This document shows positions 36,123 to 42,989 of a stretch of DNA of 64,000 bases, piece by piece. The number at the start of each line of letters is the position of its first letter. Position 1 is the stretch's first letter. The position numbers and the translations under genes were made by a program. Origin of the DNA: the human T2T-CHM13v2.0 reference genome, Homo sapiens. Under the pieces are notes generated by a model. The model did not search any database, had not been told where the DNA came from, and was given only the letters and a program-made list of their open reading frames with translations. The stretch lies in assembly GCF_009914755.1 (NCBI RefSeq), contig NC_060939.1, one strand, 5' to 3'.

Positions 36123-39100
36123 ACAATGAGAACACATGGACACAGGAAGAGGAACATCACACTCTGTGGACTGTTGTGGGATGGGGGAGGGGGGAGGGAT
36201 AGCATTGGGAGATATACCTAATGCTAGATGACGAGTTAATGGGTGCAGCACACCAGCATGGCACATGTATACATATGTAACTAACCTGCACATTGTGCAC
36301 ATGTACCCTAAAACTTAAAGTATAATAATAATAAAAAAAAACAAAGAGACAATAAGTATCTAATTTTAGTTTCATTTGCTTTGATTTTAATTAGTTGAAT
36401 ATTTTTTCAAGTCTTGTCATTGATATTTATTTTATAAATTACTGATCTTTTATTTCTCCTTTGTATATTTATTTTATATAGTTATAATTTTATTAGTCGT
36501 TCATCTATTACAGACATTTACATGTTGTATTTTCTCAGTTCATCATTTGTATTTATTGTTATAAAGTTTTTAATATGTAAAATTTCAAATTGCATTCATT
36601 AATAGCCCACATTTATGTAGCTGGTCTATAGACTTCAGATTGTACTAAATTTTTAACACATGCAATTTTATTTAATCTTTAAACCACCTTTAAAATGCAT
36701 ACAATAAGTATCCTTATTTCATTGGGGAAACTGAGCCACAGAGAGGTTCAGTGTCTTTCCCAAGTTGCATACCAGTTATTATATGTTAGAGCTTGGTATT
36801 TAAAATTAGAGAATCTGATTCTAGAGTTCTTTTTATTGAATATTTTCTTTTTTCTTTTTTCTTGAGGTATTTGCCTAGAAAGTCTTGACCCACTCTAACA
36901 CTGGATTTTTTTTGTTAATTTCTTACACTCTTCTCTTTATCTAACCCTTCACTTTCTTTTTTTCCATTCTCTTTTTCTTCTTCTTTACCATATTTCCGTT
37001 CCTTCTTCCCCAACTTCTACATTCTCTTGATTTTATCTGGAATTGATGTTGCTATGGTAGGATGAAAGTTAGTTCTCCAAATAGTTAACCAATTATGTCT
37101 GAACTACTTATTAAACAATCTAGCACTTTGTCAATAATTTGAATGCTAAATGTATCATATGAATAACAGATATACTTGGATGTGTATTTTATTTTATTGT
37201 TCTATTGTTATTGTACTAATGCCACATGGTTTAAATATTCTGTAATATTTTATTATCTGAGAGTGTAAATACTTTATCACAATATTTTTTCAAAATTGTT
37301 TTACTACTAATGATTATATGTTTTGCCATATAAACCTTTTCTTGCTTATCAGTTTTCAAATAATGAGTTGATTTTCTACATCTCCAAAGGTAAACAATAA
37401 GGGTATTTTTGTGTTTTGTTTTTTGATATTATAAACTGATGAATTTTAAAATACTGCTGTGTTTTAATATCCTTATTAACACTCAAATTTTCCATTTTTG
37501 GGCAGTGGAAGCCTCTTAAAATTTTATCTGAATGATTTTGAATCAAACTCCAACTGCCTTTTGTAACTTTCATACTTTCAATGATCTAGACTCATTTTCT
37601 ACCTCAAATCAGGAATCAGTCGTATCTTCAAAGATCCCCGATTAATGTTGTGATTAAGTTTATGAGCTGAGCATTAGGGGTGCTCATTGCTATTGCTTTA
37701 GCCATGATTTCAAGTATTTGTTTTCCTGCCAAAGAAAATACAGTATGAGTTCATACTGATATTTTCACTGAAATGTGGGATTAAACTTCTTGGCATTTCT
37801 TATTTGATTTTAGATATGATCTCTTCTTTAACATTGAAAGTCTTTGTTTATTCACATAATTATTTTCTCTACACACACACACAATTGACTAACAATAAGC
37901 TTTGGTGTGTTTATGTTTTGTTTTAATTATTGTTATCTTCTGCATTTAATCCGTTAAGGGCATGCAATAAAATTACCACATTTTAAAGTTATTTGAAACA
38001 GTTTCTCTCTGCATCATTTTTCCAATAACTCAATTCAAAGATTGTTTTTTTTAATTATTAGCAATTCCTTTTTTAAGTCTTATGTAATTTTGTTTCAAAA
38101 GTATATGCATTTACATGGTGTTAAAGTCAAACCTACAAAACAAAATGTATTAGAAAAGTCTAACTTCAATCCTGTCTCTGCTATTCTCTGTTAAAAAAAA
38201 TTCAGTTTTTTCTTCCGTTTTTAAGTAAAGGATTTATATGTATATATATCCTTTTATATTCCATATCTATCCAGTTTAAAAATAAAGGATTTATGTACAT
38301 ATACCCTTTAATATATATTTATATGTACATTAAATATACATATGAATATATGGATATATATAGATATAAATTATATATTAGTCCCTTCTTTCTCAATTAA
38401 ATGTTGTGCCATATTATACAAAAATGTTTCCAATAGTTTTATTGTTTTTTACTTAATACATCCCCAAAGATAATATAAGAGCAGCAGCATACAAATATAT
38501 GTTTAATTACACACTAGAATAATACTTCATTGTGTATTCATAGTTTAGTTAGTTTTGTTTTGTTTTTATTTTTATTTTACCTTGGTGTTTTCTTTTATTG
38601 AATCATACAAAATTGTTTGTATGATTTATTAGCTAAATAAATCTTTTAGCTAATATACCTTTTAAGAAACAACCGATTTCAAAACATTCAGCAGCTTCTC
38701 ATTTTTATGTAGCATTTTTTTTAACCTGTAGCATATTTTTTCAAAACAAAACTCTTAAATAGATGTGCTTTGAAAGTTAACGGATAATGATTTGATTTAT
38801 ATCATAGCTTAAGAGAACAATTAGTTTAAAAGGACAGACTAGACATGTGTTTCTTTAAAAAAAATACAATTTTTGATCAGGTGAATTCAAGTTCAGATTT
38901 AAAAACAGACAGCATCCTAATGTGCCTCCTTTTATTTATAATGCCACTTCTTGAAATTATAGTGATCTACAGTGTGAACAGTAAAGCAAATAATTTCAAA
39001 CTATATTTTTATGTACATTTAAAGCCCTTTAGGATTATGTACCACGATTAAGTACGTGGACTGAAACCAGGGCACTTCCAACATATAGCTCATGCTTCTA

Positions 39101-39251
39101 TGTGATTATTTTTAAGAGCAAACTTAGAGGCATTCTTTTTCCTCCACCCCCAACTGAAACAATTTTCAGCTACAGAGGAGAGCTGCTACCTCACTCCAGC
39201 AATGAAAAATATTACTGTGAATCCAATTTGACCAGCCAGTTTCTCAAGATC

Positions 39252-39531
39252 CTTTTTTATTTATTTATTTGTTGTAGAGATGGGTGGTCACTATGTTGCC
39301 CAGGCTGGACTCGAACTCCTAGGCTCAAGATACTCCCGACTAAGCTTAGAGTAGCTGGGGCCACAGCCACCTACCACCACACCCTGATCTCATATGTTGT
39401 CACTCCCAGCTAACTTTTTTTTTAACTTTTTGTAGAAACAGGGTCTCGCTATGTTATCCAGGCTGGTCTCAAACCCCTGTCTTGGTCTCCCAAGGTGCTG
39501 GGATTACATGTGTGAGCCACCACGCCCAGCC
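39252..39531 (-). mobile_element. Atypical Alu-family composite (FLAM_C-like arm, start of a right arm, FLAM_A-like monomer)
   Basis: Two left-arm-type units (ctatgttgcccaggctgg; ctatgttatccaggctgg) flanked by TCAAGA(T/C)CCTTTT. Confidence 0.65.
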
Positions 39532-39541
39532 ATCAAGACCC

Positions 39542-39712
39542 TTTTTTATTTTATTTTTATTTTTTTAAATTATACTCTAAGTTCCAGGGTACATGTGCAC
39601 ACCGTGCAGGTTCGTTACATATGTATACATGTGCCTTGTTGGTGTGCTGCACCCATTAACTCGTCATTTACATTAGGTATATCTCCTAATGCTATCTATC
39701 CCTCCCCCTACT
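39542..39712 (-). mobile_element. Short L1PA (PA4/5-like) 3' end
   Basis: tatactctaagttccagggtacatgtgcac...cattaggtatatctcctaatgctat with a T-rich tail. No clear TSD. Confidence 0.9.
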
Positions 39713-40023
39713 CTCAACTTATCAGCACAGTTTTACGTTCTCTTTCTTTCCTTCTTCTTACAAAAACAAAACATCAAAACATATAGGAGGGCATCCCTGC
39801 TGGCCTGTTCATCCTGCAAGGTTTCTCGAAAAGGCAGAGCCTGTTGCAACACCTTCTCTGGTCAGCCATGCAGGGTGAGCAGACACCTGTGCTTGGCCTC
39901 ACAAAGCAAAAAGGTGGACCTAGAACCCACTCTTCCCACAGCAGAGACAGAAGGTTAAAAAGTAACAACAAATCACAAAGTGACTTCAAGCATATTAAAG
40001 AAATCAATGATTTAGTGTCTTAA

Positions 40024-40272
40024 ACGCATGTTCTCACTTTGAAGTGGGAACTAAATAATGTGTACATGTGGACATAGAGGTTGGAATAATAGACCTTGAA
40101 GACTAGGAAAGGTGGGAGGGGCAGGGGGTGCTAGGGATGAGAAATTACTTAATGGGCACAATGAACACTATTTGGGTGATGGTTACACTGGAAGTCCAGA
40201 CTTCACCACTATGCAATATATCCATGTGGCAAAACAGCACTTGTATCCTCAAATCAATAAAAATAAAAAAAG
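40024..40272 (+). mobile_element. L1PB4-like 3' end fragment
   Basis: gaaattacttaatggg...ccagacttcaccactatgcaatatatccatgt followed by an A-rich tail. Confidence 0.8.
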
Positions 40273-40372
40273 AATTAAAAAATTCACTGGTCTCCTTAAA
40301 CTAATATAGACAACTTTGTGAGCCACAGTCTTTGAAAAAATTATAATCATAATTGGCCACACTCCATTGTTT

Positions 40373-40414
40373 CATATATATATACACACACACATATATA
40401 TATACACGTGTGTG

Positions 40415-40446
<32 letters not shown>

Positions 40447-40477
40447 TATACACATACACACACACACACACACACAT
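40373..40477. repeat. Compound (TA)n/(CA)n microsatellite
   Basis: Directly visible. Confidence 0.95.
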
Positions 40478-40769
40478 AATCTTGAAATGGTGTGATTTAG
40501 ATTCTGCCTTGGCCTGAGCTCTAAGGGCTACACTTACCCATCTGGGAATTGTAGCACAGGTTTAACTTACTTTTCTTTTTTTTAATATTTAAATTATGTT
40601 AAGTATTCAGGAGGCTGAGAACACAGACTCCCTCTCCCCTATGATCGTCTATACTTAGGCTAAGAATTAAACAAGAACCTTTGTGTTCAGCTAGTGACAA
40701 AACAAAACTGAGCCCAAAACAGGTTGCCATAAGCATGCTGGCTTTGCTCAGTGTTTAATGTTTTTTTTT

Positions 40770-40879
40770 AAAAAAAGCATGGAACACTTCACGAATTTGA
40801 GTGCCATCCTAGTGCAGGAGCCATGCTGATCTTCTCTGTATTGTTCCAGTTTTAGTATATATGATACAGAAGTGAACAC
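40770..40879 (-). pseudogene. Full-length U6 snRNA pseudogene
   Basis: The reverse complement GTGTTCACTTCTGTATCATATATACTAAAACTGGAACAATACAGAGAAGATCAGCATGGC...AAATTCGTGAAGTGTTCCATGCTTTTT aligns end to end with U6 (about 17 mismatches in 107 nt by manual count). The ACAGAGA box is retained. Confidence 0.95.
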
Positions 40880-42989
40880 TCATAGCTTATTTAACTAGTC
40901 CCCTATAGATGGACACTTGGGGACATAGTCTTTTACTATGACAAAGAGTGCTGTAATGAACATCTTTGGGAATATGTCGTTTTGTACTTTTGGAACGTAT
41001 CATTGTGACAAATTATTAGAAGCAAGATTGCTGGGTCAACGGGTCAATATGTATGCATATGTTACATGGATATATAATTTTGCTAGATGTCACCATATTG
41101 CTTGTGTAATTTAATATATCCATTGCTAATCTACAAGAGTGTGTATGTCTTTGAAGTTTCACAAGTAGTGTGCTTATCAACCTTTTGGATTTCGGCAATC
41201 TGGGAGGAAAGTAATGGCATATCAGTGTCGTTTTTAAATTTCATTTTTCTTACTATAAGTGAGGTTGAACATCTTTTCATAAGTTAAGGACAATTTGTTT
41301 TTTACTTTCTGTAAATCAATGTCTTTATATATCTCATGCATTTGTCTTGTTGTTTCTTATGTTTTTAGAAGTTCTTTTTATGTTAAGATTACTGACTCTT
41401 CTGGTGTGTTTTGTAAGTAAGTTACAAACTATTTTGGTACTTGCAAAAATTATACATATAAATTATACATTAAAATACATAATATTATACATTAAAAATT
41501 ATACATATATTATAAATATTTACATCATATTATAAATATATATGATATAATCTATATATTATATCCTATTAGATTATATCATATATAATTATATACATTT
41601 ATATACATTCATATATCTCAAGATTTCCCCTATTGAATGTGGATTTACGTATTATTAATTATTCCCATTTCTAGATCATAAAATAATTACTTCATACTTT
41701 ATTCCATTATATGTTAGTTTTTAACATTTAAATCTTTGATTCATTTTGGATTCTTTTTTGGTATATGGGATGAGGACTAGACCAATTTTCATTTTTTATT
41801 TTGTTATTCATATATTCCATTACCATTCATCAAGAAGTTCATCTTTCCCCCAGTAGTATGAAATGTTATGGTATTATAAATTCAATTTTTGTATATAAAT
41901 CTATTACTGGTTCTGTTCACAATGTTTTAATCAGAGAGATTTTAGCTATTTTTGCTTTTTGTTCTTGTAAATGTACTTTATAATTAACTTGTCTGGCTCC
42001 AGAAAAAAAAAACATATAAAAATTTTTCCTTTTAATTTGGTCCTATGATATTTATATATTAACTTTAAAATAATATATTTTAATGATGTTGAATGTTCCT
42101 TCCAGGAATATGATACATCGTTCTATTTGTCCAACTCTACTTCAGGAGTGTTTTATAATTTTTCTCATATAAATTTTGCCTGTTTTAAACTTTTTTTATG
42201 TTACTGATGGAGTCTTCTCTTTAATACATTGTTCAGGTCTATTTTTGAATTAATTATTGTCTATGTTGTAAGGCAGTAGTCCAACTTCATTCTTTTGCAT
42301 TTCATATCCAGTTATCCTAGTATCTTTAGTTGGAAACACTATTATTTCCCCCACTGAACTGCCCTAGCATCCTTGACAACAGTTGAGTCGAAATATGAGT
42401 TTACTTCTAAACTCTTCATTTCATTATTTTGATCTGTGTGACTATTCTTATGCCAGTACACATTTACTAACACTATGTAAATTTTTAAGTCAGGAAGTTT
42501 GACTCCTCTCACTTTGTTCTTCTTTTTCAAAATTGTTTTGGCTATTCTGGGTCCCTTGTATTTTCATAGCTGTTGCTTTTGGACATATAATTTGAAACCA
42601 ATCAGTGTTTTAAATTCTAATATTTGCTTTATTAGAATTTTTAATTGTTCCATTTGATTTCATCAAAGAATTAATTATGAACTTTCCCTCCTCTCTATTT
42701 CTTGTAACTCTACCTAATTTTCCCATCTCTTATTTCCATTACTAAAGTTTCGGATCAATGTTAAATAATAGTTGTGATTGCATGAATTCGTGTAGCATTC
42801 CTGACTTCAATGAGAATTAAAGGCTTACTGTTAATTTTGATGTTGGTTATTAATTTTAGCAAAAATAACAATTCAGCAAATTGTTTCTCGTTAATTAAAA
42901 CCTTGTAAACAGGAATGACTATGAGGGTGTCTCAAATTTCTGAGTCTTAATTTCCCTGTGAAACTAGGGAACTGAAGCTAGATTGGATC

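What the first reader, a model, noticed from the sequence alone, without database searches (positions are those of the whole stretch)
38538..40892. Candidate U6 snRNA-mRNA 3'UTR chimeric retrocopy inside a single TSD
Seen: an old antisense L1 is split, and its halves rejoin at a near-duplicated 13-mer (TCATAGTTTAGTT at 38538-38550; TCATAGCTTATTT at 40880-40892; 11/13 identical). The right copy ends in an endonuclease-type TTT/AA. Read on the minus strand, the insert begins exactly at U6 nucleotide 1 and runs through the full U6 and its U-tract. It then has 9 A's, ~2.2 kb of 3'UTR-like sequence (with nested repeats), AATAAA, and 15 nt later a decayed poly(A). Established: full-length U6 fused 5' of L1 or mRNA 3' fragments is a known L1-mediated product, attributed to RtcB ligation of the U6 2',3'-cyclic phosphate or to template switching. 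mRNA partners are rarer than L1 partners. Inference: this is an old (U6 ~84% identical) U6/mRNA chimera that repeat annotation would show only as a lone U6 pseudogene. I cannot name the parent gene.
Basis: partly seen in the sequence, partly recalled or inferred. Interest (0 to 1): 0.8.

Follow-up and report, generated by a model that had tools for sequence, protein, structure and literature searches.

The report
U6 plus FAM13A 3'UTR composite retrocopy
An ancient LINE-1-made insertion places a full copy of the U6 spliceosomal RNA directly in front of a copy of the tail end of the FAM13A messenger RNA; it is an inert fossil of a known process, and nine extra A's at the joint leave open whether it arrived in one step or two.

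Summary
Read on the minus strand, an old L1 is interrupted by these parts in order:
- a 13-bp target-site duplication (TSD, 40880-40892)
- a full-length U6 (40773-40879, from nucleotide 1)
- T7
- A9 (40761-40769)
- 2.18 kb ending in AATAAA and an A-rich tail
- the second TSD copy (38538-38550)

It is the terminal-exon 3'UTR of FAM13A on chr4. The copy is collinear in four blocks at 72-82% identity. It starts 818 nt after the stop codon and ends at a FAM13A poly(A) site. About 0.8 kb of the 2.18 kb is later insertions: an Alu, two L1 3' ends and a microsatellite.

The A9 itself comes from neither parent. Published chimeras, and 22 of 22 partner-bearing U6 loci I examined, are joined directly. 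Two readings remain:
- one TPRT event with an A spacer (about 0.5)
- an mRNA retrocopy inserted into the T7/A(n) endonuclease site of an older U6/poly(A) pseudogene (about 0.4)

U6 and the FAM13A part are equally diverged (about 0.11 per non-CpG site). Either way it is a known kind of element, of low to moderate interest.

The parts
40893..41316 (-). Host old L1, upstream half (ORF2 3' region by eye). The last two bases, TT (40894-40893), precede the TSD.
   Evidence: Matches dispersed L1 copies at 69-88% identity. It aligns to the uninterrupted copy L051 up to the TSD.
40880..40892 (-). 5' target-site duplication copy, AAATAAGCTATGA. Endonuclease site TT/AAAT (plus strand TTATTT/AA).
   Evidence: It matches the 3' copy at 11 of 13 positions. 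The same L1 positions occur once in L051.
40770..40879 (-). Full-length U6 snRNA retrocopy (RNU6-185P) from nucleotide 1, ending in a 7-T run (40776-40770).
   Evidence: Rfam RF00026, 92.3 bits, model 1-105, at 40773-40879. About 84% identical to canonical U6.
40761..40769 (-). A9 spacer between the U6 T run and the FAM13A-derived sequence. It is not templated by U6 or by the parent.
   Evidence: The parent has GATTTTAT at this place.
38581..40760 (-). 5'-truncated retrocopy of the FAM13A 3'UTR. About 1.34 kb of parent sequence, from chr4:92,058,059 to 92,059,400 on the minus strand, plus about 0.8 kb of later insertions.
   Evidence: Collinear BLAST blocks: 40756-40474, 40362-40301, 40022-39722 and 39255-38565 match L009 7397-7132, 7104-7050, 7025-6727 and 6711-6044 at 72-82% identity. 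Parent identity comes from the terminal-exon ORF.
40748..40760 (-). First 13 nt after A9, CATTAAACACTGA. It matches the parent at 9 of 13 positions and the TSD at 9 of 13. I judge it parent-derived.
   Evidence: all 4 differences from the parent are transitions and all 4 from the inferred target are transversions. Likelihood ratio 45-770.
40374..40481 (.). (TG)n/(TA)n microsatellite expanded inside the retrocopy. The parent has 28 nt here.
   Evidence: (family D1). It gives sub-threshold miRNA-family hits.
40023..40300 (+). Nested interspersed repeat absent from the parent. By eye it is an L1 3' end, in the opposite orientation to U6, with its A tail at about 40262-40290.
   Evidence: The parent has 25 nt here. 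There were 4539 first-look candidates, and all 40 scored (one being this stretch itself) match at 78-84% identity. The L1 assignment is by eye and recalled.
39548..39711 (-). Nested younger L1 3' end with an A-rich tail.
   Evidence: 82-91% identical to the L1 3' ends of five U6/L1 loci. Absent from the parent.
39244..39547 (-). Nested Alu (39259-39532) with its own 15-bp TSD, AAAAAAGG(G/A)TCTTGA, at 39533-39547 and 39244-39258.
   Evidence: (D6). Partial SRP/Alu match. Alu matches. Absent from the parent.
38594..38599 (-). AATAAA poly(A) signal inherited from FAM13A.
   Evidence: The parent has the same signal at L009 6080-6075.
38551..38580 (-). Decayed poly(A) tail. Not present in the parent locus.
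   Evidence: The parent continues with unrelated sequence.
38538..38550 (-). 3' target-site duplication copy, AACTAAACTATGA.
38400..38537 (-). Host old L1, downstream half.
   Evidence: It continues the L1 alignment in L051 from the TSD onward.

Best explanation
Near certain (about 0.95):
- This is a dead, L1-made retro-insertion about 50-70 million years old inside an older L1.
- It consists of a full-length U6 copy, T7, A9, and a 5'-truncated copy of the last 1.34 kb of the FAM13A 3'UTR with its poly(A) tail.
- The whole unit is bounded by one 13-bp target-site duplication at a TT/AAAT endonuclease site.
- It was later broken up by an Alu, two L1 3' ends and a microsatellite.

Most likely, but only narrowly, the unit arrived in one TPRT event:
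- L1 ORF2p nicked the host L1 and primed on the FAM13A poly(A) tail.
- It copied 1.34 kb of 3'UTR up to a break in the RNA.
- The cDNA was then continued onto U6.

The A9 is not explained by the standard routes, which are RtcB ligation of U6>p or a jump onto mature U6. It needs either an over-uridylated, oligoadenylated U6 as acceptor, or a brief passage through another RNA's poly(A) tail.

Shown: the parts, their order, the parent and the shared TSD. Inferred: that there was one event, and where the A9 came from.
For: - One TSD pair encloses everything. The L1 halves rejoin with a 12-13 nt overlap in an intact L1 copy.
- U6 is full length from nucleotide 1 and in the same orientation as the mRNA part.
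- The parent is FAM13A. The ORF 818 nt upstream of the copied segment is 100% identical over its 42 C-terminal residues to human and primate FAM13A. The chr4 locus has no poly(A) tail and continues on both sides.
- Homology runs from the base after A9 to the poly(A) site.
- Ages agree. U6 has 10 mismatches at 93 non-CpG sites (0.108; my hand count). The FAM13A part has 49 lineage-specific changes at 462 non-CpG sites (0.106).
- U6/mRNA chimeras are a known class (PMC4476161 sections read; PMC6789731 passages). Two U6 loci with mRNA-like partners are among the 30 best U6 loci of this genome (L040 actin-like and L033, both by eye).
- A T7 run fits chimeras: 6 of 21 distinct loci have T7 or longer. 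Among the 8 U6/poly(A) copies whose T runs I counted, 1 has T7 or longer (hand counts).
- Under the nested rival the partner should usually be an Alu or an L1, not an mRNA. This last point is inference.
Against: - The A9 spacer is not in the parent (GATTTTAT there) and not in U6.
- Published chimeras are "directly joined" (PMC2104539). U6/L1 junctions are T4-8 joined straight to L1 (PMC6789731).
- In my sample, 0 of 22 partner-bearing U6 loci (18 L1, 2 Alu, 2 mRNA-like) have an A run at the joint.
- Doucet et al. treated a single extra A at a junction, together with the lack of a TSD, as a hint of two events.
- RtcB ligation cannot use an A-tailed U6.
- The equal ages have wide errors (U6 standard error about 0.03) and do not exclude two events close in time.
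Confidence: 0.5

Rival explanations
1. Two sequential L1-mediated events. First, a U6/poly(A) processed pseudogene (U6-T7-A(n)) inserted into the old L1 and made the 13-bp TSD. Later, L1 endonuclease nicked the bottom strand exactly at the T7/A(n) boundary, a perfect TTTT/AA site. The T(n) primer annealed to the FAM13A poly(A) tail, and a 5'-truncated FAM13A 3'UTR retrocopy was inserted. Its own TSD is about 9 A's, so it cannot be told apart from tail sequence. The outer 13-mers then only appear to bracket a single unit.
For: - It explains the A9 and its exact position after T7 without any special RNA species.
- U6/poly(A) pseudogenes are common: 6 of 36 characterised U6 copies in PMC4476161 table 1.
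- Of the 7 other loci matching U6...T4+(N0-4)A7+, 6 are U6/poly(A) with a TSD right after the A run (by eye). Examples with T6-T7 and A7-A8 exist (L073, L080).
- The structure fails the "directly joined" criterion.
- The equal divergence of the two parts is compatible with a short interval between events.
Against: - It needs a rare coincidence: an mRNA retrocopy, about 1% of L1-mediated insertions (recalled figure), landing in one particular U6 tail, in the same orientation, and soon after the U6 arrived.
- None of the other 7 U6-T-A(7+) loci shows any nested insertion at the T/A boundary.
- There is no independent trace of a second TSD.
- My order-of-magnitude estimates of expected genome-wide counts for this route and for the one-step route overlap. 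They rest on recalled endonuclease-site frequencies and are inference, not a tool result.
Confidence: 0.4
2. The FAM13A retrocopy inserted first. An independent U6-A9 pseudogene then inserted at the same nick. CATTAAACACTGA would then be the U6's own 3' TSD (a third copy of the 13-mer), and parent homology would begin only after it.
For: - The 13-mer after A9 matches the TSD at 9 of 13 positions.
- In 6 of 6 other U6/poly(A) loci the TSD follows the A run directly.
Against: - The same 13-mer matches the parent at 9 of 13. All 4 differences from the parent are transitions, one of them CpG to CpA. All 4 differences from the target inferred from intact L1 copies are transversions.
- The likelihood ratio is 45 with a transition share of 0.5 and 772 with a share of 0.67, in favour of parent origin.
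- It also needs the second-strand nick to fall on exactly the same base as in the earlier event, giving a TSD of exactly 13 bp.
Confidence: 0.02
3. A direct U6/mRNA junction with no spacer. In this reading the ancestral FAM13A 3'UTR carried an A run at this position, which the parent gene has since lost.
For: The older retrocopies (chr15, chr6) preserve states that the parent lost later, for example a 6-nt indel. So the UTR has changed since the copy was made.
Against: - The parent has GATTTTAT here. Turning an A9 into that needs 6 or more substitutions, or a replacement, in a UTR that otherwise evolves slowly. The parent branch length is about 0.013-0.015 since the chr8 copy.
- No other retrocopy covers this region.
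Confidence: 0.03

Closest known systems
U6/L1 and U6/processed-pseudogene chimeric retrocopies (Buzdin 2002/2003; Garcia-Perez 2007; Doucet 2015; Moldovan 2019)
   Same: - Full-length U6 at the 5' end
- A 5'-truncated polyadenylated partner in the same orientation
- One TSD pair
- An L1 endonuclease-type target
- An age within the 90-30 million year window in which most U6/L1 chimeras accumulated (PMC11838501)
   Different: - Nine A's separate the U6 T run from the partner, whereas the class is defined by direct joining
- The partner is an mRNA 3'UTR (FAM13A) rather than L1
U6/poly(A) processed pseudogenes (Doucet et al. 2015, "Polyadenylated snRNA")
   Same: U6 followed by a T run and then an A run, next to an L1 endonuclease-type site. 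Copies such as U6-T7-A7-TSD exist in this genome (L080).
   Different: Here the A run is followed by 2.2 kb of FAM13A-derived sequence, not by the TSD. The matching TSD copy comes only after the FAM13A poly(A) tail.
Ordinary 5'-truncated processed pseudogenes of FAM13A (chr6:84,195,533-84,196,059 and chr8:1,646,744-1,647,315 in this assembly)
   Same: - The same parent 3'UTR
- 5' truncation
- A poly(A) tail at a FAM13A poly(A) site
   Different: - Those two copies have no U6 or other Rfam RNA at or above gathering score in the 10 kb around them
- They start about 800 nt further 3' in the UTR

Membership tests
U6/pseudogene chimeric retrocopy (one-event chimera) | The 5' part is a full-length copy of the small RNA | tested here: met
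   Rfam model positions 1-105. U6 nucleotide 1 abuts the TSD.
U6/pseudogene chimeric retrocopy (one-event chimera) | The 3' part is a 5'-truncated copy of a polyadenylated RNA that ends at its poly(A) site with a tail | tested here: met
   The FAM13A 3'UTR copy starts 818 nt after the stop codon and ends 14-17 nt after AATAAA, followed by an A-rich tail absent from chr4.
U6/pseudogene chimeric retrocopy (one-event chimera) | Both parts are in the same transcriptional orientation | tested here: met
   Both are on the minus strand.
U6/pseudogene chimeric retrocopy (one-event chimera) | The parts are directly joined: the U6 T run abuts the partner | tested here: not met
   An A9 run (40761-40769) lies between them and is absent from the parent. 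0 of 22 partner-bearing U6 loci in my sample have such a spacer. The criterion is quoted in PMC2104539.
U6/pseudogene chimeric retrocopy (one-event chimera) | The whole unit is flanked by one short direct repeat at an L1 endonuclease-type site | tested here: met
   A 13-bp TSD matching at 11 of 13, the TT/AAAT site, and the L1 overlap in L051.
U6/pseudogene chimeric retrocopy (one-event chimera) | Both parts arrived at the same time (presence or absence across species) | not testable with these tools
   No other mammalian genome is held here. Divergences are equal (0.108 against 0.106 at non-CpG sites), but that is only compatible with simultaneous arrival and does not prove it.
U6/poly(A) processed pseudogene | U6 followed by an A-rich tract | tested here: met
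   T7 and then A9.
U6/poly(A) processed pseudogene | The TSD copy follows the A tract directly | tested here: not met
   The 13-mer after A9 is better explained as FAM13A sequence (likelihood ratio 45-770). The clear TSD copy lies 2.2 kb further on. This is expected if a later insertion split the tail.
Processed pseudogene of FAM13A | Collinear with the mature mRNA, with a poly(A) tail at the gene's poly(A) site, while the parent locus lacks the tail | tested here: met
   Absence of introns cannot be tested because the segment lies within a single exon.

The most novel reading that the evidence does not exclude
The insertion is a one-event fossil in which L1 reverse transcriptase, after copying a broken FAM13A mRNA, jumped onto a U6 RNA that was over-uridylated (U7) and oligoadenylated (A9). 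That form of U6 is a nuclear-surveillance intermediate, not the mature 2',3'-cyclic-phosphate form. If so, A-tailed snRNAs serve as template-switch acceptors, which would link the U6/poly(A) and U6/chimera classes. At least some chimeras would then form without RtcB ligation.
Probability: 0.3. Interest if true: 0.4.

Novelty: new member of a known kind. Interest (0 to 1): 0.25.

Why it matters
- For annotation, it names the origin of 2.2 kb that the supplied RefSeq table labels only as RNU6-185P, with one 299-bp masked stretch. It is a FAM13A 3'UTR retrocopy, one of three in this assembly.
- For mechanism, it is a cautionary case. A shared TSD and a full-length U6 are not enough to call a one-event chimera when an A run sits at the joint. 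The T(n)/A(n) boundary of a U6/poly(A) pseudogene is itself an ideal L1 endonuclease target, and a nested insertion there hides its own TSD.
- If the one-event reading were proven by cross-species alignment, the A9 would be evidence that oligoadenylated U6 can take part in chimera formation.
- I see no sign that the element has any function.

Tried and rejected
- **Independent U6 with its own TSD.** Rejected by the transition/transversion pattern of the 13-mer.
- **chr6 or chr8 as the source locus.** Rejected. Both cover only the last 530-580 nt and carry A-rich tails (A16 on chr8, decayed on chr6), and only chr4 is collinear over all four blocks and lacks a tail.
- **A small-RNA partner at the 5' ends of the chr6 and chr8 copies.** None at or above Rfam gathering scores in 20 kb.
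- **Dating the host L1.** Related copies align only in 50-180-nt pieces at 69-88% identity. I can say only that it is old.
- **Searching with the downstream L1 flank.** The result was swamped by a TA-rich simple repeat and was of no use.
- **miRNA-family hits at 40374-40477.** All are far below gathering scores and lie in the (TG)n/(TA)n repeat. They are artefacts.
- **Pfam on the FAM13A terminal-exon ORF.** Nothing significant. The protein search gave the name instead.
- **A wider census of U6-T(n)-A(n)-X composites.** Only 4 further loci of 451 nt were read.
- **Literature.** No paper holds "RNU6-185P". In the search for FAM13A, "U6 snRNA" and retrocop*, none of the 8 listed of 17 papers joins FAM13A with a retrocopy. 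The one listed paper holding both FAM13A and "U6 snRNA" is, by its title, on retinal lncRNAs (listing only). Buzdin 2003 and Garcia-Perez 2007 are not held, so I know their tables only from recall and from citations in the papers I read. The supplements of PMC4476161 were listed but not read. That study kept only U6 copies at least 97.5% identical, so this copy cannot be in it.

Full report
**What is there.**
- Rfam places a complete U6 (RF00026, 92.3 bits against a gathering score of 44, E 2e-23, model positions 1-105) at 40773-40879 on the minus strand. This is the RefSeq RNU6-185P span.
- Read on the minus strand, the order is: old L1 sequence; TT; AAATAAGCTATGA (40892-40880); U6 from nucleotide 1; a 7-T run (40776-40770); nine A's (40769-40761); CATTAAACACTGAGC and about 2.18 kb more; AATAAA (38599-38594); a 30-nt A-rich tail; AACTAAACTATGA (38550-38538); L1 sequence again.
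- Against the canonical U6, which is identical in the 6 best loci of this genome, the copy has 16 mismatches and one 1-nt gap in 107 nt.
- The two 13-mers agree at 11 of 13 positions.

**The L1 halves rejoin.**
- In an uninterrupted L1 copy on chr1 (L051), the upstream flank aligns up to subject position 112 and the downstream flank starts at position 100. The 13-mer is therefore present once there and twice here.
- Two other L1 copies (L047, L050) match the upstream flank almost to the junction, but their downstream alignments were weak. The clean two-sided result thus rests on 1 of 3 copies.
- From the two TSD copies and these L1 copies I infer the target as AAATAAACTATGA.

**The parent.**
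- Searching the window's own genome with the three non-repeat stretches gave one locus matched by all three: chr4:92,058,043-92,059,396, minus strand.
- BLAST of the whole insert against 10 kb of that locus gives four collinear blocks at 72-82% identity: window 40756-40474, 40362-40301, 40022-39722 and 39255-38565.
- The chr4 locus has no poly(A) tail after AATAAA...CACCAAG, and it continues upstream with unrelated unique sequence.
- 818 nt upstream of the first copied base, an ORF ends in a stop codon. Its last 42 residues are 100% identical to human and other primate FAM13A isoforms (for example P0015 and P0084).
- The insert is therefore a 5'-truncated copy of the last 1.34 kb or so of the FAM13A 3'UTR, ending at a FAM13A poly(A) site.
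- The remaining 0.8 kb or so is absent from chr4 and consists of later insertions:
  - an Alu with its own 15-bp TSD (39244-39547)
  - an L1 3' end that is 82-91% identical to the L1 3' ends of five U6/L1 loci (39548-39711)
  - a high-copy repeat in the opposite orientation (40023-40300), with 4539 first-look candidates and all 40 scored matching at 78-84%; I read it as an L1 3' end by eye only
  - a (TG)n/(TA)n microsatellite (40374-40481)

**The junction.**
- The parent reads ...CTGATTTTAT|CGTCAAACACCAAGCC... where the copy reads ...TTTTTTTAAAAAAAAA|CATTAAACACTGAGCA....
- The 13-mer after A9 matches the parent at 9 of 13 positions. Parent and target match each other at only 5 of 13.
- Every position of the 13-mer agrees with one of the two.
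- The four differences from the parent are all transitions, one of them CpG to CpA. The four differences from the target are all transversions.
- A simple likelihood gives 45 (transition share 0.5) to 772 (share 0.67) in favour of parent origin.
- The "independent U6 with its own TSD" model would also need the second-strand nick to fall on exactly the same base as before. I put it at about 0.02.

**The problem: A9.**
- The nine A's are templated neither by U6 nor by FAM13A.
- The class of chimeric retrocopies is defined, among other features, by parts that are "directly joined" (PMC2104539 background passage).
- U6/L1 junctions are described as U6 ending in 4-8 T's joined to L1 (PMC6789731 passages).
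- Doucet et al. took one extra A at a junction, together with no TSD, as a hint of two independent events (PMC4476161 section read).
- I sorted the 30 best-scoring U6 loci of this genome (of 48 scored) by eye from their flanks:
  - 5 without retro features
  - 18 followed directly by L1 (17 distinct, since two are duplicates)
  - 2 followed directly by Alu
  - 2 followed by mRNA-like sequence (L040 actin-like, L033)
  - 2 U6/poly(A)
  - 1 with a short tail
  - None of the 22 partner-bearing loci has an A run at the joint.
- A pattern search for a conserved U6 13-mer followed by T4+, 0-4 bases and A7+ found 8 distinct loci including this one.
  - Of the other 7, 6 are U6/poly(A) pseudogenes whose TSD follows the A run directly (by eye).
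  - The seventh is a U6/L1 chimera whose A's belong to L1.
  - U6/poly(A) copies with T6-T7 and A7-A8 exist (L073, L080).
- PMC4476161 table 1 counts 6 poly(A)-type and 14 repeat-associated copies among 36 characterised U6 copies.

**Two surviving models.**
- (A) One TPRT event in which the cDNA of a broken FAM13A mRNA was continued onto U6.
  - The A9 then needs an oligoadenylated U6 acceptor. Polyadenylated snRNAs as L1 substrates are Doucet's second model.
  - Mature U6 normally ends in five U's with a cyclic phosphate (PMC7988573 passage).
  - The alternative is a short passage through another poly(A) tail.
- (B) Two events. A U6/poly(A) pseudogene made the 13-bp TSD. L1 endonuclease later nicked exactly at the T7/A(n) boundary, a perfect TTTT/AA site, and a FAM13A retrocopy went in with a TSD of about 9 A's. 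This reproduces every feature, including the exact position of the A run, and hides the second TSD.
- Sequence alone cannot separate them.

**Dating.**
- U6 shows 10 mismatches at 93 non-CpG positions, or 0.108 (my hand count).
- The FAM13A part shows 49 lineage-specific changes at 462 non-CpG sites, or 0.106. This was polarised with the parent and the two other retrocopies.
- A distance-based branch length is about 0.15 (my arithmetic).
- At a recalled rate of about 2.2e-9 per site per year, this is roughly 50-70 million years.
- The ages are equal within wide error (U6 standard error about 0.03). That mildly favours A.

**Weighing.**
- Using recalled figures for L1 target-site use and for the mRNA share of L1-mediated insertions (inference, not a tool result), the expected genome-wide numbers of A-with-spacer and of B overlap within an order of magnitude.
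- Four points tilt slightly to A: same orientation, an mRNA partner (an Alu or L1 would be expected for a random nested hit), the T7 length, and the equal ages.
- The failed "directly joined" criterion and the mechanistic neatness of B tilt the other way.
- I give A 0.5, B 0.4 and everything else 0.1.

**Comparison with what is known, and novelty.**
- Both readings belong to described kinds: U6/pseudogene chimeras, or U6/poly(A) pseudogenes plus an ordinary nested processed pseudogene.
- No paper in the held library contains "RNU6-185P".
- No listed paper links FAM13A with a retrocopy (8 of 17 listed, listing only).
- The specific locus and its parent therefore appear undescribed in what I could search.
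- Buzdin 2003 and Garcia-Perez 2007 could not be read, and their tables might list it.
- It is a new member of a known kind, inert, and of low to moderate interest. Its main value is as a worked example of why a shared TSD does not by itself prove a one-event chimera.

Noticed in passing
L010 5533-6059 (chr6:84,195,533-84,196,059, +) and L011 5744-6315 (chr8:1,646,744-1,647,315, -): Two further 5'-truncated retrocopies of the FAM13A 3'UTR. Their 5' ends lie within 15 nt of each other in parent coordinates (L009 6593 and 6608), although they differ in age (79% and 88.6% identical to the parent). This could reflect a recurrent RNA 5' end or break in the UTR. The chr8 copy uses a second poly(A) site about 40 nt downstream and keeps an A16 tail.
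   Followed up: partly
Alignment of window 38580-39145 with L009, L010 and L011: The chr15 and chr6 copies share a 6-nt stretch (AAAAAT region) and other states that the parent and the younger chr8 copy lack. The old retrocopies therefore preserve an earlier state of the FAM13A 3'UTR. The parent branch is very short (about 0.013-0.015), so the UTR end looks constrained.
   Followed up: partly
window 40374-40481: The (TG)n/(TA)n microsatellite gives many sub-threshold Rfam miRNA-family hits (mir-297 at 58.6 bits against a gathering score of 90, and others). These are low-complexity artefacts.
   Followed up: yes
L040 (chr1:27,166,453-27,166,559, +) and L033 (chr8:138,222,490-138,222,596, +): Two young U6 copies joined directly (T5) to non-L1 partners. 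One partner is an actin-like coding sequence. The other is a short AATAAA-bearing 3' end. By eye these look like clean U6/mRNA chimeras and could serve as comparators.
   Followed up: no
L031 (chr15:28,047,677-28,047,783) and L032 (chr15:30,078,867-30,078,973): The same U6/L1 chimera with identical flanks occurs twice, in opposite orientation and 2 Mb apart on chr15. It is presumably part of a segmental duplication.
   Followed up: no
L020 (chr4:92,016,486-92,016,592, -): An unrelated young U6/L1 chimera lies about 42 kb beyond the 3' end of FAM13A. It has no bearing on the chr15 element.
   Followed up: no
window 38230-38380: A TA-rich, (TATATG)-like simple repeat lies inside the downstream L1 flank. 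It dominated the genome search with that flank.
   Followed up: no
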